Source of the DNA: a virus
Lineage: Duplodnaviria > Caudoviricetes
Direction: 5' to 3' (one strand)
Virus record (IMG/VR): IMGVR_UViG_3300037067_023527
Coordinates: 32,001 to 96,000 of that record
Length of the DNA: 64,000 nucleotides
Shown here: positions 14,388-64,000 of the stretch, piece after piece
How the letters are laid out: each line of letters begins with the position of its first letter
How positions within the stretch are numbered: position 1 is the stretch's first letter
Notes under the pieces: model-generated
What the model was told of the DNA's origin: nothing
What the model saw: the letters and a program-made list of their open reading frames with translations, nothing else
Databases searched by the model: none
Program-made: the position numbers and the translations under genes

Positions 14388-14431
14388 TCACCACAGCATC
14401 ATTGAACAGCATTTTTGGAACATAAATTTAT

Positions 14432-14445
14432 TGTACCCGGGTACA
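14432..14445. promoter_or_regulatory. perfect 14-bp palindrome TGTACCCGGGTACA (variant of the dispersed motif)
   Basis: lies between the promoter and the probable Dcm start (14469). Confidence 0.6.
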
Positions 14446-14468
14446 GTAAAGATTGGAAATTACTAATA

Positions 14469-15800
14469 ATGATACGCGGAGTCGATCTTTTTTGTGGAGC
14501 CGGCGGTAGTACGACAGGTCTCATGATGGCCTGTAAAGAACTCGGGAGAAAGGTCGACGTGCTCGCGATAAATCATTGGAATATTGCTATCGCTACGCAC
14601 ATGACAAACCACCCGGGATTTCGGCACATGTGCGAAAACCTCGATTCCGTCAATCCTAAAAAGGCAATCCCGGGCGGGAAGCTGGATATTTTACTGGCTG
14701 GCCCAGAATGCACCCATCATTCCAATGCGCGCGGCGGCAAGCCGATGCTGGATCAGAGCCGGGCGAGCGCATGGCACGTTGTCAGATGGTGCGAAGCCCT
14801 GTATGTCCAGGATGTCGTGGTAGAAAACGTGATGGAATTCCAGAAATGGGGTCCTCTCGATCGCAAAGGCAGGCGCATAAAAGAGCGCGAAGGGGAAACC
14901 TTCAAGGCATGGATTGCAGCTCTGGAATCCCTCGATTACCGGGTTGAATGGAAAGTCCTCAATGCAGCAGACTTCGGTGATGCAACAACTCGAAAGCGCC
15001 TGTTTATTAGAGCGCGCAGAGGGGATAAGGCGATTTCGTGGCCAGATCCTTCCAATAATGCGGCATCGTGGCGCCCGGCGCGCGACGTGATTGATTGGAG
15101 TATCCCGGGTCAGAGCATATTCGATCGTAAGAAACCTCTCGCGCCGGCGACGATGGCCAGAATCATGGTTGGATTAAAGAAATTCGGCGGTGAGAAGATT
15201 GAACCCTTCCTCATTGTCTTTCGCAATCACCAAGACGCGAGTGATATCGATCAGCCGATTCCGACCATGACAACATCCGGGGCGAATTTCGGGCTGTGTG
15301 AGCCATTCGTCCTGGGCCAACAGTCTGGGAGTGTAGCCAGATCGGTGCAGAATCCGTTTCCAACTATCGCAACCGGCGGCGCGATCGCCCTCATTGAACC
15401 GTTCCTGGTTGAGTACCACGGGAGCCACAAGGAAAAAAAGGACGGCGACGGCCGTACAATGTCCGTACAACGTCCATTCAAGACCCTTGACACGTCAAAT
15501 CGGTTCGGATTGTGCGAGCCGTTCATGGTGAAGTATTACCGTACCGGTACGGCGTATCCTGTAAGCAAGCCAATGGACACGATCACAGCCAAGGACAGAA
15601 TCGGCTTGGTTGTCCCGGAAATTAATGGCGTGGCCCTGGACATTCGGTTTCGAATGCTTCAGCCCCATGAGTTGGCGGAAGCCATGGGATTCCCAAAGAC
15701 TTACAAGTTTGCCGGCACACGCGAGGCAAAGGTTAGGCAAATTGGTAATGCCTGGTCTGTCAGGACGGCCAAGGCTTTGTGTAAATCAGTTTTACAGTGA
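14469..15800 (+). CDS. DNA cytosine-5 methyltransferase
   Basis: DLFCGAGG, GPECTHHS, ENV, R.RLF, QIGNA; repeated EPF/PTxT segments. Confidence 0.93.
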   Translation: MIRGVDLFCGAGGSTTGLMMACKELGRKVDVLAINHWNIAIATHMTNHPGFRHMCENLDSVNPKKAIPGGKLDILLAGPECTHHSNARGGKPMLDQSRASAWHVVRWCEALYVQDVVVENVMEFQKWGPLDRKGRRIKEREGETFKAWIAALESLDYRVEWKVLNAADFGDATTRKRLFIRARRGDKAISWPDPSNNAASWRPARDVIDWSIPGQSIFDRKKPLAPATMARIMVGLKKFGGEKIEPFLIVFRNHQDASDIDQPIPTMTTSGANFGLCEPFVLGQQSGSVARSVQNPFPTIATGGAIALIEPFLVEYHGSHKEKKDGDGRTMSVQRPFKTLDTSNRFGLCEPFMVKYYRTGTAYPVSKPMDTITAKDRIGLVVPEINGVALDIRFRMLQPHELAEAMGFPKTYKFAGTREAKVRQIGNAWSVRTAKALCKSVLQ

Positions 15801-20796: not shown

Positions 20797-21150
20797 ATGA
20801 ATATTGATTTCATAGACATTCTGATTGCAAGCCTCTGTGTGTGGCGCCTGGCGCACATGATAAAATACGAGGCCGGACCATGGGATATCTTCATCCGGAT
20901 CAGGGAGAGGCTTGGAACTGGAATGCTGGGGAAATTGATGGACTGCATCTGGTGCAGCTCAGTCTGGCTGGCAATAATATATTTTGTACCCGGTACAAAA
21001 TACCTCGTGATCCTGTTGGCAATTTCAGGCTTGGCGATATTACTGGAGGGATTGCATGTCTTGTTGTGGCGGTCAAAAGAGAAAACAATCACTAATTCTG
21101 GCATATCCCCAATTTACCGTGATTTATTTAGGATCAAACCCGACGTATAA
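20797..21150 (+). CDS. DUF1360-like membrane protein
   Basis: VWRLAH, GPWDIF..IRE, L.DCIWCSSVW; hydrophobic segments. Confidence 0.6.
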   Translation: MNIDFIDILIASLCVWRLAHMIKYEAGPWDIFIRIRERLGTGMLGKLMDCIWCSSVWLAIIYFVPGTKYLVILLAISGLAILLEGLHVLLWRSKEKTITNSGISPIYRDLFRIKPDV

Positions 21151-39958: not shown

Positions 39959-41659
39959 ATGGGACACCTTAGAATTGGCAAAAGACCAGGTCCTCAGGGA
40001 CTATCCGCTTCCAGCAGTCCATCATTTGCCGGAATCACGATCGGGGGCATCCTAACCACTGGCGTCAGACAAAAACTTGCAGCCAATGCCAGTTATTATG
40101 TCCGGACAGATGGAAGTGATTCCAATGACGGAAGCGCAAATAATTCTGGCCATGCCTGGCTGACAATCCAGCACGGCATCGATTATATTCGTGAATTCAT
40201 AGACCCCGCTGGTCACGATGTCACGATTTATGTTGCTGATGGAACATACAGCGCCGATTATCCGATAATCCTCATGAATTCGATTCCGCACATGGGGAAA
40301 TTCTCCATTATCGGAAACTCAACCAATCCGGAAAATGTTGTCATTTCCGCGGTCTATGACTGCATTGCTGTGTTTGGATGGTGGAATGGCAAAATAGCCC
40401 TGGATGCCAAGGGACAACTTTATTTTGGCGGCATGAAACTGGTTGCCGGCATCGGGAACCGACCATGCATTTATGCCGAAAGCTCTTGGGTAACCTTCGG
40501 CAATATAGACTTTGGGGCGTCAAATTACACTCACATCCGATCGGTCAGGGGATCAGTCGTATATGCCGTTGAGGATTACAAAATCTCAGCTGATGCTCCG
40601 ATGCACATGGATGCAGAATATTTCGGCCAGATCATTCCTTTCAGTCCTCCCGTTACCGTAACCATAGTGGGAACCAGGAATTTCTCAAGCGGTTTTGCCT
40701 ACGTTGCAACGAATGGAATTGTAGACACCACTGGCACGATTTGGTCAGGATCGGCCACGGGAGTTCGCTATGTGTCCGACAAAAATTCGACCATTTGGAC
40801 CGGAGACGGAAGCGAACTGAGTCTTCCTGGTAACGCCGCTGGCATCAAGGCCGCGGGGGGGACCTACAACGGATATCCGGAAAGAGAAATCCTTAGGGCA
40901 GCGAGAACTTATTATGTTCGAACGGATGGGAACGACACCAATAATGGACTGGCGAACACCGCCGCCGGAGCGTTCCTGACAATTCAAGCCGCTGTAAATA
41001 AAATATTGAGTAGCCTGGACTTTGATGGATACGACGTTACTATTCAAGTAGGGGATGGAACGTACACCGCTGGGGCTGTGGTCAGGGGATACACGACCAA
41101 TATAGGACGTTTGACGATCAAAGGGAATACTGGGACGCCGGCGAACGTTCTGATAAATCTCACAAGCGCCGATGGTTTTCATGCAGTCGACAATTACGAT
41201 TGCCCTGTTAACGTAAAAGACATGAAGATCGTCACAGGGACAAGTGGCACCGCTCTCAGAGCGACAAATGGCATATTGAGATTCGCAAATATAGAATTCG
41301 GCGCCGCGGCAACCTATCACTTGTATGCCTTAAATGGAGGAATCATTGAGGCTACTGGCAATTATGCTGTTAGCGGTGGGGCCTTGGCGCATGGCTATGC
41401 CAATAATTGCGGGAAAATATTCCTGAGTGGAAGAACGATCACTTTTAGCAATACTCCGGCATTTAGTTCCTGGACATTTGGATCGCGGACGGGCTCAACA
41501 ATCACTGCATCGTCAATGACATTCACGAATGGAAACACTGTAACGGGTACACGATATTACGTTGACAAAGTTTCCCTTATCGACAGTGATGGCGGCGGAG
41601 ATAATTATCTTCCAGGCAATGCAGGCGGATCGTTTGCAACTGGTGGCGTTTATTCATAG
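39959..41659 (+). CDS. tail fiber/spike with two tandem beta-helix-like modules
   Basis: duplicated YYVRTDG.D.N.G.AN....A.LTIQ and LPGNA.G. Confidence 0.75.
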   Translation: MGHLRIGKRPGPQGLSASSSPSFAGITIGGILTTGVRQKLAANASYYVRTDGSDSNDGSANNSGHAWLTIQHGIDYIREFIDPAGHDVTIYVADGTYSADYPIILMNSIPHMGKFSIIGNSTNPENVVISAVYDCIAVFGWWNGKIALDAKGQLYFGGMKLVAGIGNRPCIYAESSWVTFGNIDFGASNYTHIRSVRGSVVYAVEDYKISADAPMHMDAEYFGQIIPFSPPVTVTIVGTRNFSSGFAYVATNGIVDTTGTIWSGSATGVRYVSDKNSTIWTGDGSELSLPGNAAGIKAAGGTYNGYPEREILRAARTYYVRTDGNDTNNGLANTAAGAFLTIQAAVNKILSSLDFDGYDVTIQVGDGTYTAGAVVRGYTTNIGRLTIKGNTGTPANVLINLTSADGFHAVDNYDCPVNVKDMKIVTGTSGTALRATNGILRFANIEFGAAATYHLYALNGGIIEATGNYAVSGGALAHGYANNCGKIFLSGRTITFSNTPAFSSWTFGSRTGSTITASSMTFTNGNTVTGTRYYVDKVSLIDSDGGGDNYLPGNAGGSFATGGVYS

Positions 41660-45851: not shown

Positions 45852-46520
45852 ATGCAGACCATTTATTTATTGCGAGATCCCAGGAATAGCGCCCCAAGGT
45901 ATGTGGGAGTGACAGCCAATACTCTTAGGAAGCGGCTGCGCGATCATTGCAATGACAAACGGAGAACACATCGAACCGCTTGGATTCAAAGTCTAAGAAA
46001 AATTGGGTTACGACCTATCGCCGAAATATTAGAAACCTGCGAAGACCACCAGCGCATAGATGCCGAAAAAGCGTGGATTCTTGGATTTAGGCAGTCTGGC
46101 GCTGACTTGGTTAATGTAACCGATGGAGGAGAGGGGACTGTCGGCATTAAGGTATCGGAAGAAACCCGATCGAAAATGAGGGCAGCAAAACGACGAATTC
46201 CTCCTGAAAGAAGATCGGAAATATCCTCTTTGGCTTCTAAGTCCCGTATTGGATATAAACATAAAGCAGAAACAATCGAAAAGATAAAAAAGGCTAATAC
46301 GGGACAGTCCCACCCAAAACATACGGAAGAATGGAAAAGACAAAAATCTCTTCTAGGTAAACGTCCTGAAAATATTGAGCATTGTCGGAAAATGGCAGAA
46401 TCGCATAAGGGGATTCCACGTCCACCGCATGTAGTTGAAATGATGAGAGCTCGTCGGCATAGTCAAGAAACTAAAGAGAAGATAAGAGCATCGGCCAAGA
46501 ATAGGAAGGCTAGGGTATGA
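45852..46520 (+). CDS. free-standing GIY-YIG homing endonuclease with NUMOD3 repeats
   Basis: TIYLLRDPR..RYVGVT...RLRDH, NVTDGGEG, HSQETKEKI repeats. Confidence 0.88.
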   Translation: MQTIYLLRDPRNSAPRYVGVTANTLRKRLRDHCNDKRRTHRTAWIQSLRKIGLRPIAEILETCEDHQRIDAEKAWILGFRQSGADLVNVTDGGEGTVGIKVSEETRSKMRAAKRRIPPERRSEISSLASKSRIGYKHKAETIEKIKKANTGQSHPKHTEEWKRQKSLLGKRPENIEHCRKMAESHKGIPRPPHVVEMMRARRHSQETKEKIRASAKNRKARV

Positions 46521-49500
46521 ATCGAGAAATCGTCTCTGTGCCGATTTCCTTCGCCAACAGTGGCATCATCATCAAGTCCAGTCCGGATGAAATTCCCATT
46601 ACTGCCTATAAGATGCTTTCGAATGCCCAGACTGATCGCGAAAACTCGGTCTCAGTTCGGAAGGGATTTGGACGTTTGAATGCAGGATTGCCGGCGGCGC
46701 CATATTCTTCCTATTATCTGAAGGACTCCGATAATCGACAGTGGAGATATGCCATCACAAATGGCCAGCTTTACGTGGCTCCGATTGTCGACCCAGAAGA
46801 TGCTGCAGTGTGGCCGCTTGCCAGTCATAATTATTTCGGAGCCGTGATAGGAGGGGAAAATCTCTCCGTCGCGACCGATCCCAGGGCTCTTTGGGCAACA
46901 TTCAGTTTGCGCGGCACAGAAACCAAACCATATGCCTTTATGGCCGACGGCACCAAATTCTTGAAGCATTGTGCCGGAATGGCTTCTGCGCGCCGGGTCG
47001 GGATTCCTAAACCGATGAGTCCGATCACCAATGTCGCCTTGTCGAGCGTCACCGATGTTTTGATTGATGCGTGTGAAGACTATACGACTTGGACCGGAGG
47101 AGACTCTTCAAAAACTTCCGCGGCGGATTATCCCTCGATTTGGTGGTACGGGGTTGGAACCTCTCTCGCGCGATGGATTTGGGCAAAATACACTTTTGTT
47201 CTTAATGACGGTACGGAAACCTTTAGCAGTGCAGCCAATTTGCCCAATTATATTCCCAGCGGAAAAACATCAAAGCTTTTCTGGAAAAAAGCCAAATATA
47301 CCTATCACTCTGAATCCACCGCCGGGAACAATGATCCGAATATCACCATCGGAGTCCTCACCTATCCCAATCATTATTTTTCTGATGCCGAATACGCCTC
47401 CGTCCCAGACGGAGTGAGAGTCCGCGGAGTCAGGCTCCAGGCTGGGTCGATGATCGATCGTATTCAGGTATTGTGGGAGTCTAGCGATGGAACTGCTTCG
47501 GATGGTCCTTTTCATGGTGGAGGCGGCGGAGATTTATTCGAGTTCATGCTGGATTTTGATGAATATATTATTGAACTGAAGGGTCGTTACGATACCTACG
47601 TAAATTCGCTCACCATCGTCACAAACAAGCGCGAGTCTCAAAAATATGGCGGAGACGGCGGGACCGCAGATTACAGCGTGACCCTTCCCGCGGGAGATTC
47701 GCTTCAGTCTAAAATGCTGATCGGGTTCACTGGCCGCCATGCCGGAGTGACAGACTTCCAGAACAAATTGACGGCAATCGGAATGGCCACCAGGTATGAC
47801 ACCTACGACAATACGTCTTCTGCTCCAGTCGCCGCAGTGGGCTACAATCTGTATGTCGGAGAAACTCCCAATAGTCTTTACAAAGTAAACGAAGATCCGA
47901 TCGACTTGGCTGATCCTTATTTGGAGCCTCCGGGAGGCTGGGTCTATGGGATCGATCGTCCTCCGATGGCCAATGTTGGCGATCTTTCGAACGATGCAGC
48001 GGGAGAAACAACCAATGCTGTAAAAATTAGTCTCACGGGCGCCGGCAAACTGGGCAGAGCCCTAAAGGCACTCGTTAATGACATTGGATACCCGATCGTC
48101 TCTGATTTCGGGACTATGGACCCGGATGAATCTTTTAAGATTTCAATAAAATTTGCCGATGCCACAGCTTTATCTAACTGTGCTTCTATCCGTTTAAATT
48201 TCGTCTTGAGCGATATCCCGGGAGACACCGGTGACAAATACAATTATATTGCCACCGCGGAAGTGACCGATTTTTCCGGTCATACTCCTGGATCATGGCA
48301 GCAAATTCAAATCTATAAATCTTCCTTTGTTCTGAATAATTACAGTGGAAGCGCACTCATTAATTTGGGTTGGGATACGGTAACAGCCGTTAGCGTCGAA
48401 GTGGTTACAAAAGATCCCGTTGTTGGCGCGGGAACCTGTGTTGTCAGTTTTGACAATATCTATTTTTCCCCGGTCGGAAAATTAAACGGCGCCGATCTTG
48501 AATGGACCTATACCTTTTACAACTCTAAGACCGATACCGAAAGCGATTACGCAGATTCATTTGCCAATACCCTGGGGACCTTGGTCGATAAGGCAGTGGA
48601 ATTGAGTTTCCCTTCGACTCCGCTGACAAATGCCCCTATGGCAAATCCTGACAAAATCAGGATTTACAGAATGGGCGGTACGATTACCCAATTCCAAAGA
48701 GTGGCTGAGATTGACTACGTGGCGGGATTCCCATTCAGTTACGTGGACAACATCGGGGATGAATCCCTTGGGGATGTGCTCGAGACCGACAATCAGCTCC
48801 CGCCGGAAAATGTCGAGGGTGTTGAAATTTTCGATGACCGACTTTGGACCTGGGGAGGCGTTTCCCTTGAAGGAATTGCCGAGCCTGGAAACTGGCTTAG
48901 ATTCTCTAAGGGAGCCAGGATCGAGCACTTTCCGTCTGACAATTACGTTATTGTCGGGTCCGGCAATGAAAAAATCATGCGAGTGTTTGAGCATGATGGG
49001 GAATTGTTCATTTTCACTCTCACTAAGGTTTATCGAATTGTTGGGCAGAATGGAGACTATAAGGCCGTATCGACAGCCGTCAACCAGGGAATCAAAAACA
49101 AATTTGCTGTTTGTCGGGGCGCTCGCGGCCTTTACATGCGCTCCTATGATGGGATTTGGGAATTTCCTAATGGACGAAAAATTTCCGAGCCAATCAACCA
49201 AGTGTTTTTTGGGGAGACCGTCAATGGAATTGAGCCAGTTGCGGCCGATCGGGAAGATGAAGAAGCAATGGCGTTTTGGAATTCCATGGTCTTTTTCTCC
49301 TATTGCGCCACAACCGATGCTTCCATCCGAAACGATCGTACTCTAATTTGGGACACCCAGCATGAGCGTTGGTTTTGGTACATTTACGGAGCCCAAAATC
49401 TCTATCAGGAACCAGAGACAGATCTCCTGATTGGCGCCAACCTCACGCAATGGTACAGCGTTGTGCCCGGTGTACCCGTTACAGTGCGCCGCTCCGGAGC

Positions 49501-55282: not shown

Positions 55283-56755
55283 ATGCCTGATGCTCAGGGA
55301 GTATCGTCTGTCGTTGGGGAATTCCTCAAAGGCTACATGGGTCAGACCGCCCAAGAAGAGCAGAAGAAGGTCGAGAAGGTGCGCGGCATCCTGGACATAG
55401 CCGATCGATACCGGCGCATTGCAGAGGATCCGGACGCTTCCGACGTGGAATATAACCACGCCCAGGAGCAATACCAGACCTTTCTCGGCATGGCCGATAA
55501 AGAGTTCAACCGCAGCACCAGCGGTCTCGGCTCCATCATGAAGATCTTCGGTTTCGGCAAAAAAGGCAAAAATGGGACAACTCCATCAATGCCGAGGCAA
55601 TGGTTTCAAAAACCTCCTGAAAAGGGAGCCCCAACCGTCGCCGCGGCAATGCCTCGTCCGGGCTTTATGGGCCCGGAGCCAACTATCCCGCGGGAAGAAG
55701 ATATGCCGGCCGAATTCCGCGGCATTCCCCGTCAGATGTATGCCTCTGTACCCGGTACGGCCGCTCCCGCCCCCATTGCTCCTGTCGCAAATCCGGCGCC
55801 TCCAGACCAATATGCTGGTATGAGTCCAAGATTGGTGAGAAGAGCCCAATTTGCCGACATTCAAGCTGATAAAAACCAGCAGAGACAAATTGAAGCCGCA
55901 AAACAGACTGCGGAAATAAATAAACAAAACCAGCAGGATGTTTACAATTGGCAGCAACAACAGAGGCAGGCGCTGATCAAAGATCAGCTCGATGCATATC
56001 GCGCCAGACCCGAATATGGAACGGATCCCGAAGCCGACAGGCGCATGGAGGATTATATCCAATTTGGCATACAGCCTCGGCAAGAATCATTGCGGACAAA
56101 AACAGAAATAGTGCGCAATGAGGCAAACCAATTAGTCAGACGAACGACAGATTTGAGGAACGGGGAAACTATAAGCGAAGATCCTTATGCCAATGCCAAC
56201 GACGAACCTTTAATTCAGGCAATAATCGAAAACCATAGGGCAAAAGGAGAAACAGTAACGCCTGATCAGGCTTTGGCTGAATTAGGACAAGTTCGGTTAA
56301 GGGGATTGACCTTGACTAATACCGGGAAGGAAGCCGGCATTCAAGCCCAAGCCGCCCTTACTAAATCCAGGCAACAGAGAACGCAATTCCTTAAAGACAA
56401 GGAAAATAATGGAGGAACGCTTACTCCATCCCAGGCTGCCAGCCTGTATAAAGCGGCTAAGGCAAGTGCAATATCTAGATTTAAAGCAGAAGTTAGTGAA
56501 ATGGATCAACTGCAAATGAATCAGGCCACAAAGAATGCCATGATAGCCCGATTTGAAAAAGAGTATGTCGAAGGCGGTAGTGGGCAGGAAGGCATTATGG
56601 CATGGGATGAAATGATAAAACTTGTCAATCCCAATGCCGCGCCTCCGAAAACACCAGAGGAAAAAGCAAAGGCTTTCATTCAAAGCATGGTTGGAGCGCA
56701 AAAGAATAATCCTTCCGCTCCTGCAACGATCAGGCCTGGCAATTTACCCAAGTGA
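55283..56755 (+). CDS. putative ejection protein
   Basis: RBS AGGAGG; Q/A-rich helical with Pro-rich linker. Confidence 0.65.
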   Translation: MPDAQGVSSVVGEFLKGYMGQTAQEEQKKVEKVRGILDIADRYRRIAEDPDASDVEYNHAQEQYQTFLGMADKEFNRSTSGLGSIMKIFGFGKKGKNGTTPSMPRQWFQKPPEKGAPTVAAAMPRPGFMGPEPTIPREEDMPAEFRGIPRQMYASVPGTAAPAPIAPVANPAPPDQYAGMSPRLVRRAQFADIQADKNQQRQIEAAKQTAEINKQNQQDVYNWQQQQRQALIKDQLDAYRARPEYGTDPEADRRMEDYIQFGIQPRQESLRTKTEIVRNEANQLVRRTTDLRNGETISEDPYANANDEPLIQAIIENHRAKGETVTPDQALAELGQVRLRGLTLTNTGKEAGIQAQAALTKSRQQRTQFLKDKENNGGTLTPSQAASLYKAAKASAISRFKAEVSEMDQLQMNQATKNAMIARFEKEYVEGGSGQEGIMAWDEMIKLVNPNAAPPKTPEEKAKAFIQSMVGAQKNNPSAPATIRPGNLPK

Positions 56756-56766
56756 GCGATTCTTCT

Positions 56767-59700
56767 ATGGCAACAAATCCTGCTATTGCTCCGCAAGACG
56801 ATCCGTGGGAAAAGATAAAGGCGAAAGACGTTTATCTCAATCCCGAGTTTTACAAATTAGACAGGGATACTCGGGCCTACATTACGAGCAAGGTTGTTCC
56901 CGATTGGCAAAAATGGGATGAACCGACGCGCAACGCGACGATAGATGCACCGCTTACATATTGGCAGGAATATTACAAACCTGCTCCTCCACCCGAGGAA
57001 CCCTCCTTTTTCAGTAAAGCCGCCGGCGCGGTAAAGAATGTTTTGAATGAATTCGCCCTCTCCCAGGGTGAGGCCGCAAAAGAGCGGTCGCTTGCTGCAT
57101 TGCCGCAAGACTTTGGTCAGCCTCCAGACATTGATGAGGAAATCAAAAAGCAAAAAGAGGCCAGAAAGCCCAAAGCCAAATTCGACCCCGAGGGATCCGG
57201 GTACGACTATGAAGCCGCTCGATCAGCCGGATTGAATATGGACGAAACGGGCCATTGGCCTAGCCGTGATCCTAAAACAGGATTAATTTTGAAGGGCCGC
57301 GCTCATGAAACATGGTCTAAAACCGAGGAGGGTGAGCGGCAAGCCGGGTATCAAATTTATAAGAAAAACGGGAGATATTATTCCAAACCGATAAATATTC
57401 CTGCGTACAACGACCAGATTATTGCCGAACAAGCCGAAAAACTGAATGACGAATTGGGAGAAATTTCATTTAATTTGAAAGAAAGAGGCAAGGAAATTGA
57501 CTCTTTACTTCCTACCGTCGACCGGGCTAATCCCCAGAGCGTGGAATATTTCAATACCAAGGTTAATGAATATAATGGATTGATCACCCAGGCGAAAGAA
57601 CGCAAAAGTAAACTGGATCCGCTTCTGGCCACCGGCTATAAACTGAAACGCAGCGTTTGGGGCGCATCCGTAAATATCCCGGGAGGCGTTCCTGTCATCG
57701 ATCGCAGAACGGAAACCGAGAAACTTCCGCTGGAAACTGCCGCTCCGAAAACCAAGACGGGATTGAAGCCCGGCGAGACCGCGGAAATTTCCGAAGACGT
57801 TATCGCCCCAGACTTGGCAAACTACCAAGCAATGCCGGACGGTACGTTTATAGACCGGCGCCCAAATTCTCAGGGCAAGCACGACACCGTAAAGCTGATT
57901 GGCGGGCAACCCTATCGCGTAATAGAGCCTCCAGAAAAAACCGCTGAAGAACGCGTCATGCAGATCAATATCGATCGCATAACGAATGGTCAGGCTCCTC
58001 TTCCTATCCCAACCAGTCGTTTCGGCAATGCCGTGATGTCTACGATGAAGGGATTCGCTGAAGGATTGCCGGCGAATTTTAAATCTATCGCCGCAATGGG
58101 CCACCTGGCTCAATATGCGATGAATCCGCAAATTGACACGATCGCCGCAACAGGGATTGCTCCTGAACCTCCCAGATTGGAAGATAGTTGGTTGTGGCAA
58201 GCAGCTCAGGCGATTCAGGATAAAATTGATGCAGGACTCCCTGTCAATCCAGCTTTCCAGAATGAATTTTGGGCCTCCATGGTTCCGCAGGGGTTGGGAT
58301 CGACAGCATACTTCATGACAGTAGGAGCCCTCTCGAGCCGGCTTGGAATCAATCCACTCCTTTCAACGGCTGGTGGCGGCGCACTCGTTCAAATGGGACC
58401 GATGTATGAGGAAGCTTATTTGTCTGGAGCTCCACCGCTGGAATTATTTGCGACCGCGCTCGCGGGAATCGGCCTTGGTGCATCAGAAGCTATTCCGATA
58501 AACAAAGCCCTGAAAAGGTTTGATGACGTTACCGGAGGATTCGCCTCTCGATTTATCAAAAATCGCATGAGGAAGGCGCTCGAGGGCGGGATTCAGGGAT
58601 TCGCAGAGGAATTCCTGCAGGAGTTTTCACAGAACATTGGGCAGGATTGGGTGTCGAGCGCCACTACCCGCCGCGGGATCCCAACTGATTTAGACAAAAC
58701 ATACGGCCTGCCACAGAACCTTAATAGACCTCCCGCCAAAGAGATGAATATTAAGGAAGATTTCATGCAGGGATTGGCCGGCGGTGTGTCGGGCGCCGCA
58801 ATGTCTGCCCTGATGGCAACTCTGGGCGTCTCCAATTTCAGGAATCGCATTCGGCAAGCTTACAAGCAATCTGTCGACAATCTGCAAATGGAGATGCGAG
58901 ATCAGAGGGTCCCAGAAGAAGAAGTTAGATTGCGCATCGGATTGCTGAGAGCCCAGGAAAAGCAACTTATCCGGCGCCTGGAAAGACAGGCCGATGAGTT
59001 GGATAAAAAGGCAGATAACAAAGTTAAGGAATGGGAGAAACTTACAGGGACGAAGGCCGTAATGGTCCTCGATCCAGAAAGTGGCTCCGTCATTTCCATC
59101 AACAATAAGGCGGATTACGATCGCGCAAAAGAATCCCAGGAAAATGAAGCCCCTCCTGCTCCTCCAGCCGCGGCGGCTCCCGTTGTTCCGGAAGAGGCCG
59201 CGCCGCCGGCCCCGCCGGCGGTTACCCCAGAAACTCCTGCAATGACTGAAGAGCAAATTCAGCAACAGGTGTCGACCGGGGAAGAAAAGATTCGCCAGGA
59301 AGCCAAAAGAGTTGCGGATCAAAAAACGGATGAAGCCTTTGCCGCGGCCAGAGAAAAATGGAATAAACTCAAAGGGGAAATGGGACAGCTTTTTGAGGGC
59401 GCCGCGCCGGCCGTTCAGCCTGCTCAAAAAGAAGGACCCGCCGGCATGGAAACTCCACCGCTCTCCCCAGAGCAAGAGGCTTTCCATGGCTGGTTGAATA
59501 CCGTCTCTCCTTCCGAAAAAGCGGAATCCGTTGGTCAATACCAGGATTGGGTGAAAGAGACCCTTCCAGAAGAACTCAGGCCGTATGCTCCGTCATACTT
59601 GCGAGCGCAAGCGCATTTTGCCGAGGGACTTATTGGAACTGAAGGTATGGCCGAATGGGCCGCAAAAGAAGCCCAAAGAATCCAAGTGGAGGCGGCTAAA

Positions 59701-62700
59701 CCGATCGATGCCGAATCTTTGTTGCAGAAGATGCCTCCGGAAAACCTGGAGGCTCTTGTCCAGAACGGCACAACCGATGAAGATCTCAAAGCCATCATTG
59801 GGAAAGCCTTTGGCATGCGCGGGGGATGGGGCAATGAAGATGAGGCATTGCCGATTGTTCGTTACAGCGGTGGCCCGCATCCGTTCTTCAATATCAAAAA
59901 GCCTCACACCAAAGAAGAAGTGAAACTCACCGGAAAAAATCTGGTTGAGGCATACCGGAAAACCTTCGGCATACCGCAAGTACAGACTCCGGCCGTGGCG
60001 GAAACCACAGTAACCCCTGAAGCTACTCCGGTAAAACCAAATGGAACAGAAGATGATGGAACTAGTCCGTTTGGTTTTGGGGTCCAAAAGATTGCCGGAA
60101 AAATGCAATTGGCTCTCAGCAAAGAACAGATCGAATCGCTCAAGAAAATGCCTGTAGAAAGAGCGACCCAGATTGTTCAGAATCGAATCGATCGCGCAAT
60201 CGAGTTGGGATCGAACTATCAGGAAAAACTTTCTGATATCCTGCAATCTCTTGCTCCACCAGAAATTACTCCTGCCCAAGTTCCATTTATGATTACAAAA
60301 TTGGATCGTCAGTCATTATTGGATCTCGGGTGGACCAATAAGCAAATTGACGGAATGACGCCCGCCGATGCGCAGACATATCTGGCTCAAAACCAGGGTC
60401 CAGAAGCGGCCACGCCGGCACAAAAAGAAGTAGTTCCAGAAGAATTCGGACAGGCTCCGGAGGCACCAGGGCCTTTGACGGAAACGCCTGTCGTTGAGCC
60501 GGTCGCAACTCCGCCGGCAGAAGCTTCCGATGTTAGACTCGCCAGAAGGATAGCGGAGCATCTGAAATTGGGCGCTGGCATCGATAAAAATGTCTTCTTT
60601 ACCTTTGCCGATGAAGAGTATGGCGGCACCCGGGCTGAAGGCAAGTATGGACCCAGCGAAGCATACGACGCTCTGGAACTGGGCATCAATCTCTACATCC
60701 AGGGGATGGATGATTCTGGTTGGCTCAATGCGGATCTTGAAACTGCGCATAAGACGATCGGAATGCTGCAGGACCTGCAAGCTGATATCGTTTCCCAAAC
60801 AAACCGATCTGGCAATAAGGAATTGCTGCAGCAATTCTCCACCCCTCCGGCCTATGCGTATGCGATCTCCTGGATAGCCAATGTCCAGCCAGGTGATATC
60901 GTCGCCGAGACTTCCGCGGGCACAGGCGATATCGCCCTGCAGGCGCAGAAAATGGGCGGAGAAGTTCATGCGAATGAAATCGATCCTCGCCGGGCGGCGT
61001 TGCTCGAGCAGATCATTCCGAATGTTACGCAATATGATGCGGAACAGATCGGCAACATCCTCCGGAACAAATTAAAGCCGACCGTTGTTGTGATAAATCC
61101 GCCATTCAGCCACGCCGGAACGAGAATGGGCGGCAAGAAAGTCATCGGAATCGATCGGAATCATATCGACGCGGCTTTATCCCTTCTTCAGACGGCCGGC
61201 AGGCTTGTGGCGATTATTGGGGCGCCGTTGCAGGGCGGAGAAACCCTTGGCATGTCGGAATGGCTCGAAAAAACAAGATCAAAATATAATATCAGGGCCA
61301 ATGTCCAGGTTGGCAGGGATGTCTACAAGGGTTATGGCACCACATTCCCGACCCGAGTGCTGGTGATTGACAAAACGGGATCCACGCCCGAGGGGTCGAC
61401 AATAACGAGCAATGTGGAAAATCTCAGTCAGTTAATTGACAATTTAGAGGGAGTGCGCAATGAACGAAAGCCTGCGCCAAAGCCAAGTATTCAAGGCGAA
61501 CCAGTCGCCGCTGGGGCAACTGACGTCCAAGTGCCTGGAACTGCTCCAGGCGGAGGACCCGGACCAATACGTACTGTACCCGTTACAACTGGTCCAGTCG
61601 ATGTTGGAGAACCATCAGGACAGCCTGCCGTTGCTGGTGCGCAAGAACAGGGAATTTCTCCTGAGCCAGGCGGACGTAATGTCGGACTGGGACCCCAGCC
61701 TGGTGCTGGTGCAACTCCTGCAGCCGGAGCCGGGGGAATCGTTGGAGGAGAACGCGAAACAGGCGGCAAAGAGCCTGCAAAACAAGAGCCCGGAGCAGGT
61801 AGGGGAAATATTAGCGGAGAACCTTCTGTTCAGCCTGGCGAAAGGGCGGCCGAGTCTGTTGGGACCGAGCCCAGAGCAGTAGCTCCCCAAAGAAAACTGG
61901 ACGAAAATGTAATTTTCGATCCTTACACTCCCACCAATGTCACCCTAAAGGGAGCGCAGAAACATCCGGCCTCCGTCGTTGAGAGCAGCACGATGGCCGC
62001 AGTCAATTTTCCCAACACCAATTACGTTCCAGACATTCCTGAAAGCCTCATAGCCACAGGAGCACTCTCTGATATCCAATTGGAATTTATCGCCTCTGCC
62101 GGAGACAACCATTCCAGACTGATGCCCGATGGAAGCCGGTATGGAATCTTGCTGGGTGACGGCACCGGAATGGGGAAGGGACGCCAGCTTGCGGGAGTAA
62201 TCCTGGATAATTGGCGCCGGGGAAGGCGCAAGGCCATCTGGATTTCCAAAAACAAAAAGCTTTTTGATGAGACTGTGCGCGATTGGCGTGATCTGGGACA
62301 AAATGATAAACAGGTTTACAACATCAGCAAGTTCGGCGGTGACGCCGAGATCGACATTGATGAAGGGATATTGTATTCGACCTATGACACCCTGAGATCC
62401 TCATCGAGAAATGGGAAAAGCCGGCTTCAACAATTGTCAGACTGGCTGAATAAAGGAGATAAAGAGTTTGACGGCGTGATCGTTTTCGATGAAGCGCATC
62501 TGATGGGAAGCCTTTCTTCTGAGCGCAGCGTAGCAGCTCGCGCGCTTCAGAATACATTTCCCAAAGCCCGCATTGTGTATGCTTCAGCCACTGCAGCAAC
62601 GGAGATTGAGAGTTTGATTTTCGGGCAAAGATTGGGCCTGTGGGGCCCAGGAACTCCTTTCCCAACCGTGGAGGAGTTTGCTGCACAAATTGGCAGCTCT

Positions 62701-64000
62701 GGGGTGTCGGCTATGGAGGCAACCGCTCTTTCCTTGAAAGCCATGGGGCGCTACATGGCTCGTTCCATCAGTTTTGATGACGGCACAGATGAGGGGCGCG
62801 TCGAATATGAACGCTTAGAGCACAAACTCACCGGCGATCAAACATTGATGTACGACCGAATGGCGGAAGCATGGCAATCAGTTATCGGAAGGATCGAATC
62901 GGTTCTTAAAGAGACCAAAGCACCCGGGCAGGCCCGCGGGCGGGCGCGGGCAAATTTCTGGTCAGCGCATCAACGCTTTTTTAATATGATGCTGACCTCC
63001 ATGCAGATGCCGGCCGTGCTGGAGCGCATAGAGCATGATCTTGCCTCAGGAAACTCCGTTGTGCTGCAGTTGACCAATACGGGTGAGGCTGATCAGGAGC
63101 GCGCCGTTGCCAACAGGGATCCAGAGGAAGATCTGGATGATTTCGCTATTGATCCTTTTGACACCCTCGTTAATTTGGTTAGCGATCATTTTCCAACGCA
63201 AGCATACGAGGATTATATAGGAGCCGACGGGAAAGTTAGAACCAGGGCAGCCTATACGGGGGGATACCTAGATGGAGTTCCTCAAGGAGAGCCGATTCAA
63301 GATGCGGCCGCGGTCGCCGCTAAAGAGGCTTTACTGGATGATCTGAATAGTATGAGCGCGCTCATGCCTGAGAGTCCGCTGGACATGATCGTGAATACTT
63401 TTGGTTCAGATAGGGTGGCTGAAGTAACCGGGCGTAAACGGCGGTTCACCTGGGAGACGCAGCCGGATGGAAGCCGAAAGCGCGTCGAGCAACGCCGCAC
63501 AAAGGAATTATCCAACAAAGCGGAAATAAACGCCTTCCAAAATGACAAGAAACAGATTCTTGTGTTTTCTGAAGCTGGGGGGACCGGGGCAAGCTATCAC
63601 GCCGATCGCAGGGCGGTGAACCAGAGGAAAAGAGTCCATTATCTGGTCCAAGCGGGATGGAGAGCAGACAATGCCATCCAAGGTCTCGGTAGAACGCATC
63701 GATCCAATCAGAGACAAGCCCCAGAATACGTCCTTGTTCACACTGATCTTTCTGGGCAAAAGAGATTCATCTCCACCATCGCGCGCCGCCTGGCTCAGTT
63801 GGGTGCGTTAACCAAAGGGCAACGCCAGGCCTCTGGTGGGGGAGTCTTTACTGCAGCGGATAATCTGGAAAGCCAGGAGTCGACCGATGCATTGCGCCAA
63901 TTCTTTATTGCGCTTAGAAATGGGGATGTTCCTGATATAACTATTGATGATTTTGAGGCCCAAACTGGACTGCAGCTTCGTAACGAGCAAACCAGGAATC
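56767..64000 (+). CDS. giant DarB-like polyvalent protein (N6-MTase-like + strawberry-notch SF2 helicase), >=2411 aa, truncated by window end
   Basis: QFSTP, SAGTG, NPPF (61096), GDGTGMGKG (62155), DEAH (62488), SAT, QGLGRTHRSNQ (63679); no stop seen in this frame and the ORF track has no + ORF in it. Confidence 0.88.
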   Translation, partial: MATNPAIAPQDDPWEKIKAKDVYLNPEFYKLDRDTRAYITSKVVPDWQKWDEPTRNATIDAPLTYWQEYYKPAPPPEEPSFFSKAAGAVKNVLNEFALSQGEAAKERSLAALPQDFGQPPDIDEEIKKQKEARKPKAKFDPEGSGYDYEAARSAGLNMDETGHWPSRDPKTGLILKGRAHETWSKTEEGERQAGYQIYKKNGRYYSKPINIPAYNDQIIAEQAEKLNDELGEISFNLKERGKEIDSLLPTVDRANPQSVEYFNTKVNEYNGLITQAKERKSKLDPLLATGYKLKRSVWGASVNIPGGVPVIDRRTETEKLPLETAAPKTKTGLKPGETAEISEDVIAPDLANYQAMPDGTFIDRRPNSQGKHDTVKLIGGQPYRVIEPPEKTAEERVMQINIDRITNGQAPLPIPTSRFGNAVMSTMKGFAEGLPANFKSIAAMGHLAQYAMNPQIDTIAATGIAPEPPRLEDSWLWQAAQAIQDKIDAGLPVNPAFQNEFWASMVPQGLGSTAYFMTVGALSSRLGINPLLSTAGGGALVQMGPMYEEAYLSGAPPLELFATALAGIGLGASEAIPINKALKRFDDVTGGFASRFIKNRMRKALEGGIQGFAEEFLQEFSQNIGQDWVSSATTRRGIPTDLDKTYGLPQNLNRPPAKEMNIKEDFMQGLAGGVSGAAMSALMATLGVSNFRNRIRQAYKQSVDNLQMEMRDQRVPEEEVRLRIGLLRAQEKQLIRRLERQADELDKKADNKVKEWEKLTGTKAVMVLDPESGSVISINNKADYDRAKESQENEAPPAPPAAAAPVVPEEAAPPAPPAVTPETPAMTEEQIQQQVSTGEEKIRQEAKRVADQKTDEAFAAAREKWNKLKGEMGQLFEGAAPAVQPAQKEGPAGMETPPLSPEQEAFHGWLNTVSPSEKAESVGQYQDWVKETLPEELRPYAPSYLRAQAHFAEGLIGTEGMAEWAAKEAQRIQVEAAKPIDAESLLQKMPPENLEALVQNGTTDEDLKAIIGKAFGMRGGWGNEDEALPIVRYSGGPHPFFNIKKPHTKEEVKLTGKNLVEAYRKTFGIPQVQTPAVAETTVTPEATPVKPNGTEDDGTSPFGFGVQKIAGKMQLALSKEQIESLKKMPVERATQIVQNRIDRAIELGSNYQEKLSDILQSLAPPEITPAQVPFMITKLDRQSLLDLGWTNKQIDGMTPADAQTYLAQNQGPEAATPAQKEVVPEEFGQAPEAPGPLTETPVVEPVATPPAEASDVRLARRIAEHLKLGAGIDKNVFFTFADEEYGGTRAEGKYGPSEAYDALELGINLYIQGMDDSGWLNADLETAHKTIGMLQDLQADIVSQTNRSGNKELLQQFSTPPAYAYAISWIANVQPGDIVAETSAGTGDIALQAQKMGGEVHANEIDPRRAALLEQIIPNVTQYDAEQIGNILRNKLKPTVVVINPPFSHAGTRMGGKKVIGIDRNHIDAALSLLQTAGRLVAIIGAPLQGGETLGMSEWLEKTRSKYNIRANVQVGRDVYKGYGTTFPTRVLVIDKTGSTPEGSTITSNVENLSQLIDNLEGVRNERKPAPKPSIQGEPVAAGATDVQVPGTAPGGGPGPIRTVPVTTGPVDVGEPSGQPAVAGAQEQGISPEPGGRNVGLGPQPGAGATPAAGAGGIVGGERETGGKEPAKQEPGAGRGNISGEPSVQPGERAAESVGTEPRAVAPQRKLDENVIFDPYTPTNVTLKGAQKHPASVVESSTMAAVNFPNTNYVPDIPESLIATGALSDIQLEFIASAGDNHSRLMPDGSRYGILLGDGTGMGKGRQLAGVILDNWRRGRRKAIWISKNKKLFDETVRDWRDLGQNDKQVYNISKFGGDAEIDIDEGILYSTYDTLRSSSRNGKSRLQQLSDWLNKGDKEFDGVIVFDEAHLMGSLSSERSVAARALQNTFPKARIVYASATAATEIESLIFGQRLGLWGPGTPFPTVEEFAAQIGSSGVSAMEATALSLKAMGRYMARSISFDDGTDEGRVEYERLEHKLTGDQTLMYDRMAEAWQSVIGRIESVLKETKAPGQARGRARANFWSAHQRFFNMMLTSMQMPAVLERIEHDLASGNSVVLQLTNTGEADQERAVANRDPEEDLDDFAIDPFDTLVNLVSDHFPTQAYEDYIGADGKVRTRAAYTGGYLDGVPQGEPIQDAAAVAAKEALLDDLNSMSALMPESPLDMIVNTFGSDRVAEVTGRKRRFTWETQPDGSRKRVEQRRTKELSNKAEINAFQNDKKQILVFSEAGGTGASYHADRRAVNQRKRVHYLVQAGWRADNAIQGLGRTHRSNQRQAPEYVLVHTDLSGQKRFISTIARRLAQLGALTKGQRQASGGGVFTAADNLESQESTDALRQFFIALRNGDVPDITIDDFEAQTGLQLRNEQTRN
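61460..61882 (+). CDS. probable nested overprinted gene (+1 frame), 140 aa
   Basis: RBS GAGGGAG 6 nt upstream of ATG; GC3-biased codons in this frame; host frame here is a P/G/A linker. Confidence 0.6.
   Translation: MNESLRQSQVFKANQSPLGQLTSKCLELLQAEDPDQYVLYPLQLVQSMLENHQDSLPLLVRKNREFLLSQADVMSDWDPSLVLVQLLQPEPGESLEENAKQAAKSLQNKSPEQVGEILAENLLFSLAKGRPSLLGPSPEQ

What the first reader, a model, noticed from the sequence alone, without database searches (positions are those of the whole stretch)
61447..61882. Nested +1-frame gene occupying the MTase-helicase linker
Seen: RBS plus ATG, and 140 codons that span almost exactly the low-complexity linker. The +1 frame encodes an ordered-looking Leu/Glu/Gln helical protein with CTG/GCG/CAG-type codons, while the host frame is P/G/A-rich, as if constrained by the inner gene. 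It also contains a copy of the 13-bp motif (61575). Inference: an overprinted inhibitor, antitoxin or chaperone for the giant protein.
Basis: partly seen in the sequence, partly recalled or inferred. Interest (0 to 1): 0.7.

Follow-up and report, generated by a model that had tools for sequence, protein, structure and literature searches.

The report
Real gene hidden inside giant-protein linker
A complete 140-codon gene for a small, well-folded helical protein of an undescribed family lies one base out of step inside the floppy linker joining the DNA-methylase and helicase parts of a giant phage virion protein; relatives keep both readings, so one stretch of DNA makes two products, and annotation misses the small one.

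Summary
The ORF is there as described: SD GAGGGAG at 61447-61453, ATG at 61460, stop at 61880-61882, 140 codons, +1 frame of the giant ORF that starts at 56752. An open +1 frame alone is not evidence, because the Gly/Pro/Ala-rich linker leaves it open by chance (P about 0.2).

Comparative evidence shows the gene is real:
- Against the closest relative, variation at the host's third codon position falls from 58% in the flanks to 24% in the linker (P = 1e-14). Substitutions favour changes that are silent in the nested frame.
- All 18 distinct related loci tabulated have an ATG or GTG at the same column, behind an SD-like run.
- The host frame stays open although 3-11 stops would be expected.
- A search of 1.84 billion proteins found 33 end-to-end relatives.
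- AlphaFold gives pLDDT 96 for the nested frame and 55 (no structure) for the host frame of the same DNA.
- One copy stands alone with no overlapping frame, just upstream of type I restriction genes.

The protein matches no Pfam, PHROG, NCBIfam, PADLOC or PDB entry and no solved fold. Its function is unknown. My inference is a trans-acting binding protein in restriction/anti-restriction conflict. Earlier notes of this scan describe similar hidden genes in other giant phage genes. I found no publication describing the arrangement.

The parts
56752..63999 (+). Host gene: giant polyvalent virion-type protein. The window holds 2416 codons; the full protein is 3998 aa.
   Evidence: ORF. Pfam AAA_34, Helicase_C_4, ResIII and DEAD. 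P0003 carries LPD38. It lies after TerL, portal and internal-virion-protein genes.
60913..61113 (+). Core motifs of the N6-adenine-type methylase domain in the host frame: SAGTGD (60913-60930) and NPPFSH (61096-61113).
   Evidence: Read from the translation. JGI names relatives 'predicted RNA methylase'. No Pfam MTase model reached E 0.01.
61447..61453 (+). Shine-Dalgarno-like GAGGGAG of the nested gene, written inside host codons Leu-Glu-Gly.
   Evidence: Sequence. An SD-like purine run sits 6-10 nt before the aligned start in 18 of 18 distinct loci.
61460..61882 (+). Nested +1-frame gene: 140 codons plus TAG. The product is an acidic all-alpha protein of 15.6 kDa (P0001).
61465..61890 (+). 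Host-frame disordered Gly/Pro/Ala-rich linker between the methylase and helicase modules.
   Evidence: Composition. Poor conservation. AF2 pLDDT 54.6, pTM 0.12 and no secondary structure. Kept free of stops against expectation.
61575..61587 (+). 13-mer TGTACCCGTTACA. It lies in a 24-nt block identical in L001 that encodes the nested LYPLQLVQ core and the host VPVTTGP.
61960..62859 (+). Strawberry-notch-type SF2 ATPase core (AAA_34) of the host protein.
   Evidence: Pfam residues 1737-2036, E 1e-97.
63376..63981 (+). Helicase_C_4 domain of the host protein.
   Evidence: Pfam residues 2209-2410, E 3e-71.

Best explanation
Window 61460-61882 is a genuine protein-coding gene wholly embedded, same strand and +1 frame, in the gene for a 3998-aa DarB-like polyvalent virion protein.

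Shown or strongly supported:
- Ribosomes would start at its own ATG, behind an SD written inside the conserved host motif LEGVRN(E/D).
- The product would be a 15.6-kDa acidic, nine-helix globular protein of an undescribed family.
- The same nucleotides in the host frame encode an intrinsically disordered spacer that only has to stay open and flexible, so that methylase and helicase remain one polypeptide.
- Selection acts on both readings: on the amino-acid sequence of the nested protein, and on stop-freeness of the host frame.

Inferred:
- The small protein is co-expressed late, from the same mRNA as the giant protein.
- It has no conserved catalytic-type residues. Its conserved positions are mainly Leu and Pro, plus one Asn and one Gln.
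- It therefore most likely acts in trans as a binding protein in restriction/anti-restriction conflict. The target would be an adenine-methylase plus SF2-motor machine: either the phage's own methylase-helicase dyad or host type I restriction-modification enzymes.
For: 1. Frame-specific substitution, W versus L001. Host codon positions 1/2/3 differ at 0.20/0.10/0.58 in 993 flanking codons and at 0.42/0.25/0.24 in the 140 linker codons. Fisher P is 1.3e-14 for position 3 and 9e-8 for position 1.
2. Among changes silent in exactly one frame, nested-silent ones are in excess. W-L001: 47 to 30, expected 33 to 39, P = 0.006. L003-L024: 38 to 14, expected 19 to 21, P = 2e-4.
3. phmmer of P0001 against 1.84e9 representatives gave 33 hits. 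Most are 110-150 aa and match end to end. Together they form a clean helical-pattern alignment.
4. I retrieved loci through the host's methylase motif only. The nested-family HMM then hit their +1 frame at E 1e-10 to 1e-50. The three that gave no HMM hit (L005, L013, truncated L021) still carry a +1 ORF starting at the same spot.
5. An ATG (17 loci) or GTG (1 locus) sits at the same alignment column in 18 of 18 distinct loci. It is made by a T-ending host Asn/Asp/Ser codon, although T-ending codons are the minority in these genes. An SD-like run lies upstream in each.
6. Given the nested protein, the host frame should carry 3-11 stops. It carries none in 16 of 16 loci, with P at or below 0.01 in most.
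7. AF2 on the nested frame gives pLDDT 95.8 and pTM 0.90. On the host frame of the same DNA it gives pLDDT 54.6, pTM 0.12 and no secondary structure.
8. L004 holds a stand-alone homologue (P0129, C-terminal half, E 1e-27 to the HMM). The would-be host frame there is full of stops. It lies 174 nt upstream of hsdR-hsdS.
9. In the flanks, the codon-usage score of the +1 frame is -0.34. In the linker it rises to +0.04.
Against: - No direct evidence of translation exists (no Ribo-seq or peptides), and the phage is uncultured.
- The open frame is expected by chance.
- Simple pairwise identity does not discriminate. Mean identity is 0.27 for the nested frame, 0.21 for the host frame and 0.26 for the stop-containing +2 frame.
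- The syn/nonsyn asymmetry is significant only for the closer pairs; distant pairs are saturated.
- The functional part rests on few contexts: one stand-alone copy beside type I R-M with DNA in hand, and two contexts known from gene calls only.
- Net charge of -1 to -9 is too modest for a classic DNA mimic.
- No fold or family match gives any functional handle.
Confidence: 0.85

Rival explanations
1. Chance ORF. The Gly/Pro/Ala-rich linker has few codons with T at position 2, so the +1 frame is open without encoding anything.
For: Synonymous shuffles keep the +1 frame open in 19-22% of trials for the window and in 20-90% for most relatives. Other long alternative-frame ORFs exist in the same gene, including antisense runs of up to 300 codons.
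Against: The frame-specific substitution pattern, the conserved start and SD, the 33 database homologues, the pLDDT-96 fold and a stand-alone copy without an overlapping frame are not explained by chance. Control +1 ORFs inside the methylase domain translate to Arg/Cys/Ser-rich junk and are less conserved than the host frame there.
Confidence: 0.02
2. Programmed +1 ribosomal frameshift. The alpha-helical domain is made as a C-terminal extension of a truncated N-terminal-plus-methylase product that lacks the helicase, and the SD-like element acts as frameshift stimulator rather than initiation signal.
For: Phages often make two products from one gene by recoding. An internal SD-like sequence stimulates +1 shifting in prfB (own knowledge). 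Both frames are open across the junction region.
Against: - In the window, L001, L002, L003, L012 and L024 a nested-frame stop lies only 4 codons before the ATG. That leaves a 12-nt window with no recognisable slippery or hungry-codon site.
- The ATG/GTG is conserved at one column in 18 of 18 loci.
- Copies outside a methylase-helicase gene begin at about the same position.
- SD-to-ATG spacing of 6-10 nt fits initiation.
Confidence: 0.04
3. Fusion scar. A once-separate small gene was overrun when the methylase and helicase genes fused. It is no longer translated and is decaying.
For: The folded, older-looking partner is the nested one and the host frame is a featureless spacer, which fits read-through fusion across an intervening gene. 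Stand-alone family members exist.
Against: The frame, start codon and SD persist across relatives whose flanking domains are only about 40% identical. Closely related pairs still show purifying selection on the nested frame (38:14 and 47:30). A dead frame would have lost its start and gathered nested-nonsynonymous changes.
Confidence: 0.04
4. A nucleotide-level element, not a second protein, suppresses synonymous change here. Candidates are RNA structure, a packaging or regulatory site, or the repeated 13-mer.
For: A 24-nt block including the 13-mer is identical between the window and L001, and the 13-mer recurs three times in the window.
Against: The suppression spans all 420 nt with three-base periodicity in the +1 frame. 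The conserved block encodes the most conserved peptide of the nested family. Distant relatives conserve the amino-acid pattern, not the nucleotides. I did not test RNA structure.
Confidence: 0.02

Closest known systems
Rz/Rz1 embedded spanin genes of phage lambda
   Same: A complete gene with its own start lies wholly inside another phage gene, on the same strand and in the +1 frame. Both products are made, and annotation pipelines tend to miss the inner gene.
   Different: There is no sequence or fold relation. Rz1 is a short lipoprotein that pairs with Rz. Here the inner product is a 140-aa globular helical protein, the outer frame is a disordered interdomain spacer of a 4000-aa protein, and a functional link between the two products is not shown.
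Hepatitis B virus polymerase spacer overlapping preS/S
   Same: A disordered, poorly conserved spacer between two enzymatic domains shares its DNA with a better-constrained gene in another frame, and the constraint is asymmetric in the same way.
   Different: It is an animal virus with a compact genome under strong size pressure. This is a 113-kb tailed phage with no obvious need to save 420 nt.
comS inside srfAB of Bacillus subtilis (own knowledge)
   Same: A small out-of-frame gene is embedded in a giant multidomain gene and expressed from the same transcript.
   Different: ComS is a 46-aa regulatory peptide confined to a narrow lineage. The present family is 110-150 aa, folded, and kept across deeply diverged phages.
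DarB of phage P1 and the methylase-helicase dyad of polyvalent proteins (Iyer et al. 2017, PMC5512222)
   Same: The host gene has an adenine-methylase module fused to an SF2 ATPase inside a giant multidomain protein encoded with virion genes. LPD38 is phage-type according to that paper.
   Different: The paper does not mention the linker, overlapping frames or low-complexity regions (0 occurrences of 'overlapping' and 'linker'). The helicase here is Sno/AAA_34 type. No relative was found among 50,697 deposited phage records.
TnpV-like genes nested in polyvalent genes
   Same: The architecture is the same: a +1-frame small gene in a linker of a giant anti-restriction-type gene.
   Different: None of the 30 family members matches PF14198 at E 0.1 or below. 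Neither does the six-frame search of the whole phage at E 10 or below. This is a different protein family occupying an analogous niche.

Membership tests
Embedded same-strand out-of-frame overlapping gene | Both reading frames are kept open across relatives. | tested here: met
   The nested frame is open in all loci examined. The host frame is open in 16 of 16 loci although 3-11 stops are expected.
Embedded same-strand out-of-frame overlapping gene | Purifying selection acts on the embedded frame, seen as suppressed host synonymous change and an excess of embedded-silent substitutions. | tested here: met
   Host position 3 differs at 24% in the linker and 58% in the flanks, P = 1.3e-14. Nested-silent versus host-silent changes are 47:30 and 38:14, P = 0.006 and 2e-4. 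Distant pairs are saturated.
Embedded same-strand out-of-frame overlapping gene | The embedded gene has its own translation-initiation signals. | tested here: met
   ATG or GTG at the same column and an SD-like run 6-10 nt upstream in 18 of 18 distinct loci. This is sequence-level evidence only.
Embedded same-strand out-of-frame overlapping gene | The protein product is detected. | not testable with these tools
   No expression data are at hand. As a proxy, AF2 gives pLDDT 95.8 and pTM 0.90.
TnpV (Pfam PF14198) | Match to the family profile. | tested here: not met
   No hit at E 0.1 or below for any of 30 members. No six-frame hit in the phage at E 10 or below. I made no profile-profile or fold comparison with TnpV.
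DNA-mimic anti-restriction proteins (Ocr, ArdA) | Very high negative charge that imitates the DNA backbone, and the corresponding fold. | tested here: inconclusive
   Family pI is 4.6-5.9 and net charge -1 to -9, far below what I recall for Ocr or ArdA (own knowledge). Neither appears in the Foldseek or VIA lists, which does not exclude them.
DarB-like methylase-helicase polyvalent protein (host gene) | Adenine-methylase module fused N-terminal to an SF2 ATPase in a giant multidomain protein of a phage. | tested here: met
   SAGTGD and NPPF motifs at 60913 and 61096. AAA_34 and Helicase_C_4. LPD38 on the full protein. Virion-module neighbours. Methylase specificity and virion packaging were not tested.
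   Nothing indicates that the giant protein is toxic. One stand-alone copy lies beside a PemK toxin gene that already has its own 85-aa upstream partner.

The most novel reading that the evidence does not exclude
The linker between methylase and helicase in giant phage polyvalent proteins is a conserved dual-coding site, and the folded protein it hides is an autonomous, mobile conflict module. On the quick, midpoint-rooted tree, copies outside the giant gene sit at three or more separate positions among nested ones. If that rooting holds, the gene has left the giant gene several times and settled beside restriction and defence genes (type I R-M; GmrSD and PARIS-like genes). It would then modulate methylase plus SF2-motor machines in trans, as a new class of restriction regulator or anti-restriction factor. 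The methylase-helicase fusion itself may have arisen by reading through this pre-existing gene.
Probability: 0.25. Interest if true: 0.85.

Novelty: new variant of a known kind. Interest (0 to 1): 0.72.

Why it matters
- Embedded out-of-frame genes are textbook rarities in double-stranded DNA phages, Rz1 in Rz being the standard example. Gene finders forbid them by design. Here a 140-aa folded protein family with no Pfam, PHROG or PDB relative is invisible in every full-length record. It surfaces only on short contigs, where the caller cannot see the giant ORF.
- The case shows that long 'low-complexity linkers' of giant anti-restriction proteins can be coding in a second frame.
- It gives a clean natural example of asymmetric dual coding, with an ordered protein over a disordered spacer.
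- It points to an unstudied player in the methylase-helicase (DarB-type) anti-restriction module.
- Together with the similar cases already noted in this scan, it suggests a general and so far apparently unpublished feature of polyvalent protein genes.

Tried and rejected
- **Open-frame length as evidence:** rejected, because shuffles reproduce it.
- **Mean pairwise identity per frame:** not discriminating, because the stop-containing +2 frame scores as high as the nested frame.
- **Nested-guided identity (115 of 120 pairs favour the nested frame):** biased by the alignment, so I used it only as support.
- **Family libraries:** Pfam, PHROGs, NCBIfam, PADLOC and PDB sequence profiles gave no hit for the nested family.
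- **Fold searches:** Foldseek against PDB and BFVD gave nothing below E 0.4. VIA-align wide gave a best Z of 4.0.
- **ESM Atlas:** only ARM/HEAT-like leads, below the recognition threshold.
- **Deposited records:** tblastn of P0001 against deposited phages and plasmids found nothing. The host segment also found nothing useful in phages.
- **The search for related loci:** a single sequence found nothing.
- **Search for longer fused forms:** none found, which is weak evidence.
- **TnpV lead from earlier notes:** not met.
- **Alphaproteobacterial plasmid methylase-Sno proteins (L030, L031):** they have a shorter linker and no nested homologue.
- **Other +1 ORFs in the host gene (59585, 60590, 60881):** junk-like translations, and their matches in relatives are by-products of host conservation.
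- **N-terminal half of P0129:** not a duplicate of the domain, and no family or Atlas lead.
- **Careful ML tree:** did not finish, so only the quick tree with a midpoint root was used.
- **P0123, P0149 and P0005 contigs:** DNA could not be fetched.
Full report
**Setting**

The window is bases 32001-96000 of a complete 112,783-bp virus record with direct terminal repeats. It carries a large terminase gene at 26248, a portal gene at 30119 and an internal virion protein gene at 46517. At the end of this virion module lies a giant ORF starting at 56752. Its full product is 3998 aa (P0003).

In the part held by the window, Pfam finds AAA_34 (residues 1737-2036), Helicase_C_4 (2209-2410), ResIII and DEAD. 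Upstream of these are adenine-methylase motifs, SAGTGD and NPPFSH. The full protein also carries LPD38. This is the 'DNA methylase-helicase dyad' of phage polyvalent proteins, whose archetype is P1 DarB (Iyer et al. 2017, PMC5512222).

**The observation**

- ATG at 61460 and TAG at 61880-61882, 140 codons.
- +1 frame relative to the host.
- GAGGGAG lies 6 nt upstream of the ATG.
- A nested-frame stop lies just before that, at 61445-61447.

Over the same DNA the host frame reads a linker dominated by Gly, Pro, Ala, Glu and Val. The 13-mer at 61575 recurs at 49471 and 41539.

The open frame alone means little. A +1 stop needs T at host codon position 2, which a Gly/Pro/Ala linker rarely has. Synonymous shuffles of the host keep a run of at least 144 codons over the linker in 22% of trials, and the gene has one somewhere in 41%. 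In 13 relatives the same test gives P mostly between 0.2 and 0.9.

**Comparative evidence that the frame is coding**

The closest relative with DNA in hand is L001 (P0004, 70% identical over the region searched). It has a 140-codon +1 ORF with start and stop at the homologous positions.

Differences between the two, by host codon position:

| Region | Codons | Position 1 | Position 2 | Position 3 |
|---|---|---|---|---|
| Flanking methylase and helicase | 993 | 0.20 | 0.10 | 0.58 |
| Linker | 140 | 0.42 | 0.25 | 0.24 |

Host third-position change is suppressed (Fisher P = 1.3e-14). The most variable position becomes host position 1, which is nested position 3 (P = 9e-8).

I then classified single differences by their effect in each frame. 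Changes silent in the nested frame but replacing a residue in the host frame outnumber the reverse class.
- W versus L001: 47 to 30, expected 33 to 39, P = 0.006.
- L003 versus L024: 38 to 14, expected 19 to 21, P = 2e-4.
- More distant pairs are saturated.

A control supports this reading. +1 ORFs inside the conserved methylase domain also 'match' L001, but at lower identity than the host frame there, and they translate to junk. In the linker the order is reversed: 62% identity for the nested frame against 45% for the host frame.

**A protein family**

phmmer of P0001 against 1.84 billion representative proteins found 33 hits. Most are 110-150 aa and match end to end. They align into a family with a regular hydrophobic pattern. 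Shared motifs are LN.sPLg.La, dP..LY.LQL, LP.P and AENL..NL....P.L.

Most of these proteins come from contigs of about 1 kb. There the gene caller cannot see the giant ORF, so it calls the complete small ORF instead. L002 and L003 show this, with the host frame open right through.

As an independent check, I retrieved relatives through the host's methylase motif only (alignment A2). The nested-family HMM then hit the +1 frame of those loci at E 1e-10 to 1e-50. The three loci without an HMM hit (L005, L013 and the truncated L021) still have a +1 ORF starting at the same place.

**Start signals and the host frame**

All 18 distinct loci tabulated have ATG (17) or GTG (1) at one alignment column. 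The start is formed by a host Asn, Asp or Ser codon ending in T, followed by G. T-ending codons are the minority for these residues in these genes (AAT 44%, GAT 40%, AGT 28%). Each start is preceded by an SD-like purine run. These loci are related, so the counts are not independent.

The reverse test concerns the host frame. Given each nested protein and the host gene's codon usage, the host frame should contain 3-11 stops. It contains none in 16 of 16 loci, with P at or below 0.01 in most. Read-through from methylase to helicase is therefore itself under selection. This is true dual coding.

**Structure**

AlphaFold2 with the 30-sequence alignment gives pLDDT 95.8 and pTM 0.90 for P0001, with nine helices. 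The host-frame translation of the same DNA, with its own 16-sequence alignment, gives pLDDT 54.6, pTM 0.12 and no secondary structure.

The fold has no convincing match.
- Foldseek against PDB and BFVD gives nothing below E 0.4.
- VIA-align against 48,161 chains gives a best Z of 4.0.
- No Pfam, PHROG, NCBIfam, PADLOC or PDB-sequence hit exists.
- ESM Atlas offers only ARM/HEAT-like leads below its recognition threshold.

**Copies outside the giant gene**

- **L004.** P0129 (276 aa) carries the domain as its C-terminal half. The would-be host frame there is full of stops. The gene lies 174 nt upstream of hsdR and hsdS of a type I R-M system.
- **P0123.** It is 57% identical to P0001. It is called 65 nt downstream of a DUF4276 gene, itself preceded by AAA_15/21 ATPase and GmrSD genes (PARIS-like plus type IV restriction). 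This rests on gene calls only, with no DNA.
- **P0149.** It lies in an integrative element with HTH_17, ParB, D5-type primase and integrase genes. Again gene calls only.
- **L034.** P0156 lies in a 332-kb bacterial contig, after a PemK toxin pair. Relics of the host frame still flank it (SLREVRNDR before, RKTELTDSV after), so this copy derives from a nested one.
- **L028.** This copy has no helicase downstream.

No Sno-type helicase (AAA_34) was found in the assemblies holding L004 and L028, while positive controls rang. These are MAGs, so absence is not proven.

On a quick ML tree the outside copies sit at three or more separate positions among nested ones. The root is a midpoint only, and the careful search did not finish.

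Alphaproteobacterial plasmid methylase-Sno proteins have a shorter linker and no nested homologue. No relative of either gene occurs in 50,697 deposited phage records. A sample of 401 genomes from one phylum gave 3 matches, one of them weak and probably spurious.

**How it most likely works**

Shown at the sequence and evolutionary level:
- Two overlapping frames are both under selection.
- The nested gene has an internal SD and start.
- The nested product is folded, and the host spacer is disordered.

Inferred:
- The small protein is translated from the late mRNA of the giant gene by internal initiation.
- It lacks conserved catalytic-type residues. The near-invariant positions are N14, L18, L26, Q43, L44, P57, L118, L122 and L126. 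It therefore probably acts by binding.
- Its target is probably in the restriction/anti-restriction sphere, because it sits in a DarB-type dyad and its escaped copies sit near restriction and defence genes. The strictly 'dedicated chaperone or inhibitor of the giant protein' version is weakened by those escaped copies.

I put the reality of the gene at about 0.93-0.95. I put the specific functional guess at about 0.4.

**Rivals**

- **Chance ORF:** contradicted by all the comparative evidence.
- **Programmed +1 frameshift:** unlikely. A nested-frame stop lies 4 codons before the ATG in the window and several relatives, and the start codon is conserved.
- **Decaying fusion scar:** contradicted by purifying selection in close pairs.
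- **Nucleotide-level element:** does not explain three-base periodicity over 420 nt, or amino-acid-level conservation in distant relatives. RNA structure was not tested.

**Novelty**

Embedded +1 genes are a known kind; Rz1 in Rz, comS in srfAB and the HBV spacer/preS overlap are the ones I know. The polyvalent-protein paper does not mention overlapping frames or linkers, and my literature searches found no description of this arrangement.

Earlier AI notes of this scan report more than ten analogous hidden genes in giant methylase-helicase genes of other genomes. Some are TnpV-like, and one is a 143-aa undescribed family. They are leads, not evidence. They agree with this reading. The one claim I could test here, TnpV membership, is not met.

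Noticed in passing
window 61575-61587, 49471-49483, 41539-41551 (-), 20985-20997: The 13-mer TGTACCCGTTACA occurs three times exactly and once with one mismatch. In the nested gene it lies in a 24-nt block identical in L001. I did not examine whether the other copies mean anything, such as a protein-binding or methylation site.
   Followed up: partly
L034:8001-8396 (ENA ERZ25039519 contig_982, 332 kb): A family member sits in a bacterial chromosome right after an 85-aa/PemK toxin-antitoxin pair. It still has relics of the host frame on both sides (the SLREVRNDR methylase-end motif and the RKTELTDSV helicase-lead motif) but no methylase or helicase. It looks like a fragment of a giant gene trimmed down to just the hidden gene.
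   Followed up: partly
Contig of P0123 (JGI 3300075153, 6454 bp; no DNA available): The closest database relative of the nested protein (57% identity) is called as a separate gene immediately after GmrSD, an AAA_15/AAA_21 ATPase and a DUF4276 protein. That gene order resembles a type IV restriction plus PARIS defence island.
   Followed up: no
L002, L003, L032, L035, L036: On short or broken contigs the gene caller reports the nested ORF and restarts the helicase as a separate gene. Public protein collections therefore hold this family only as 'hypothetical proteins' from fragments, never from intact giant genes.
   Followed up: yes
Host motif LEGVRN(E/D), window 61444-61464: This motif at the end of the methylase domain is conserved in nearly all relatives. 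It coincides base for base with the SD and start codon of the nested gene, so its conservation may owe as much to the inner gene's initiation signals as to the methylase.
   Followed up: partly
window 57508-61071, minus strand: Antisense stop-free runs of 239-300 codons lie opposite the giant gene in one frame. This is the usual artefact of the frame complementary to a long gene. I did not look at them further.
   Followed up: no
L033:3400-3997: In this relative the host frame starts only about 35 codons before the nested start, after a separate 589-aa gene with no Pfam hit. This may be a variant in which the upstream part is a separate gene, or an assembly frameshift. The contig ends in a poly-Pro/CCN run.
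   Followed up: no
window 14415-15800: The phage carries a second, separate DNA methyltransferase gene (PHROG 116, E 6e-74) far from the giant gene.
   Followed up: no
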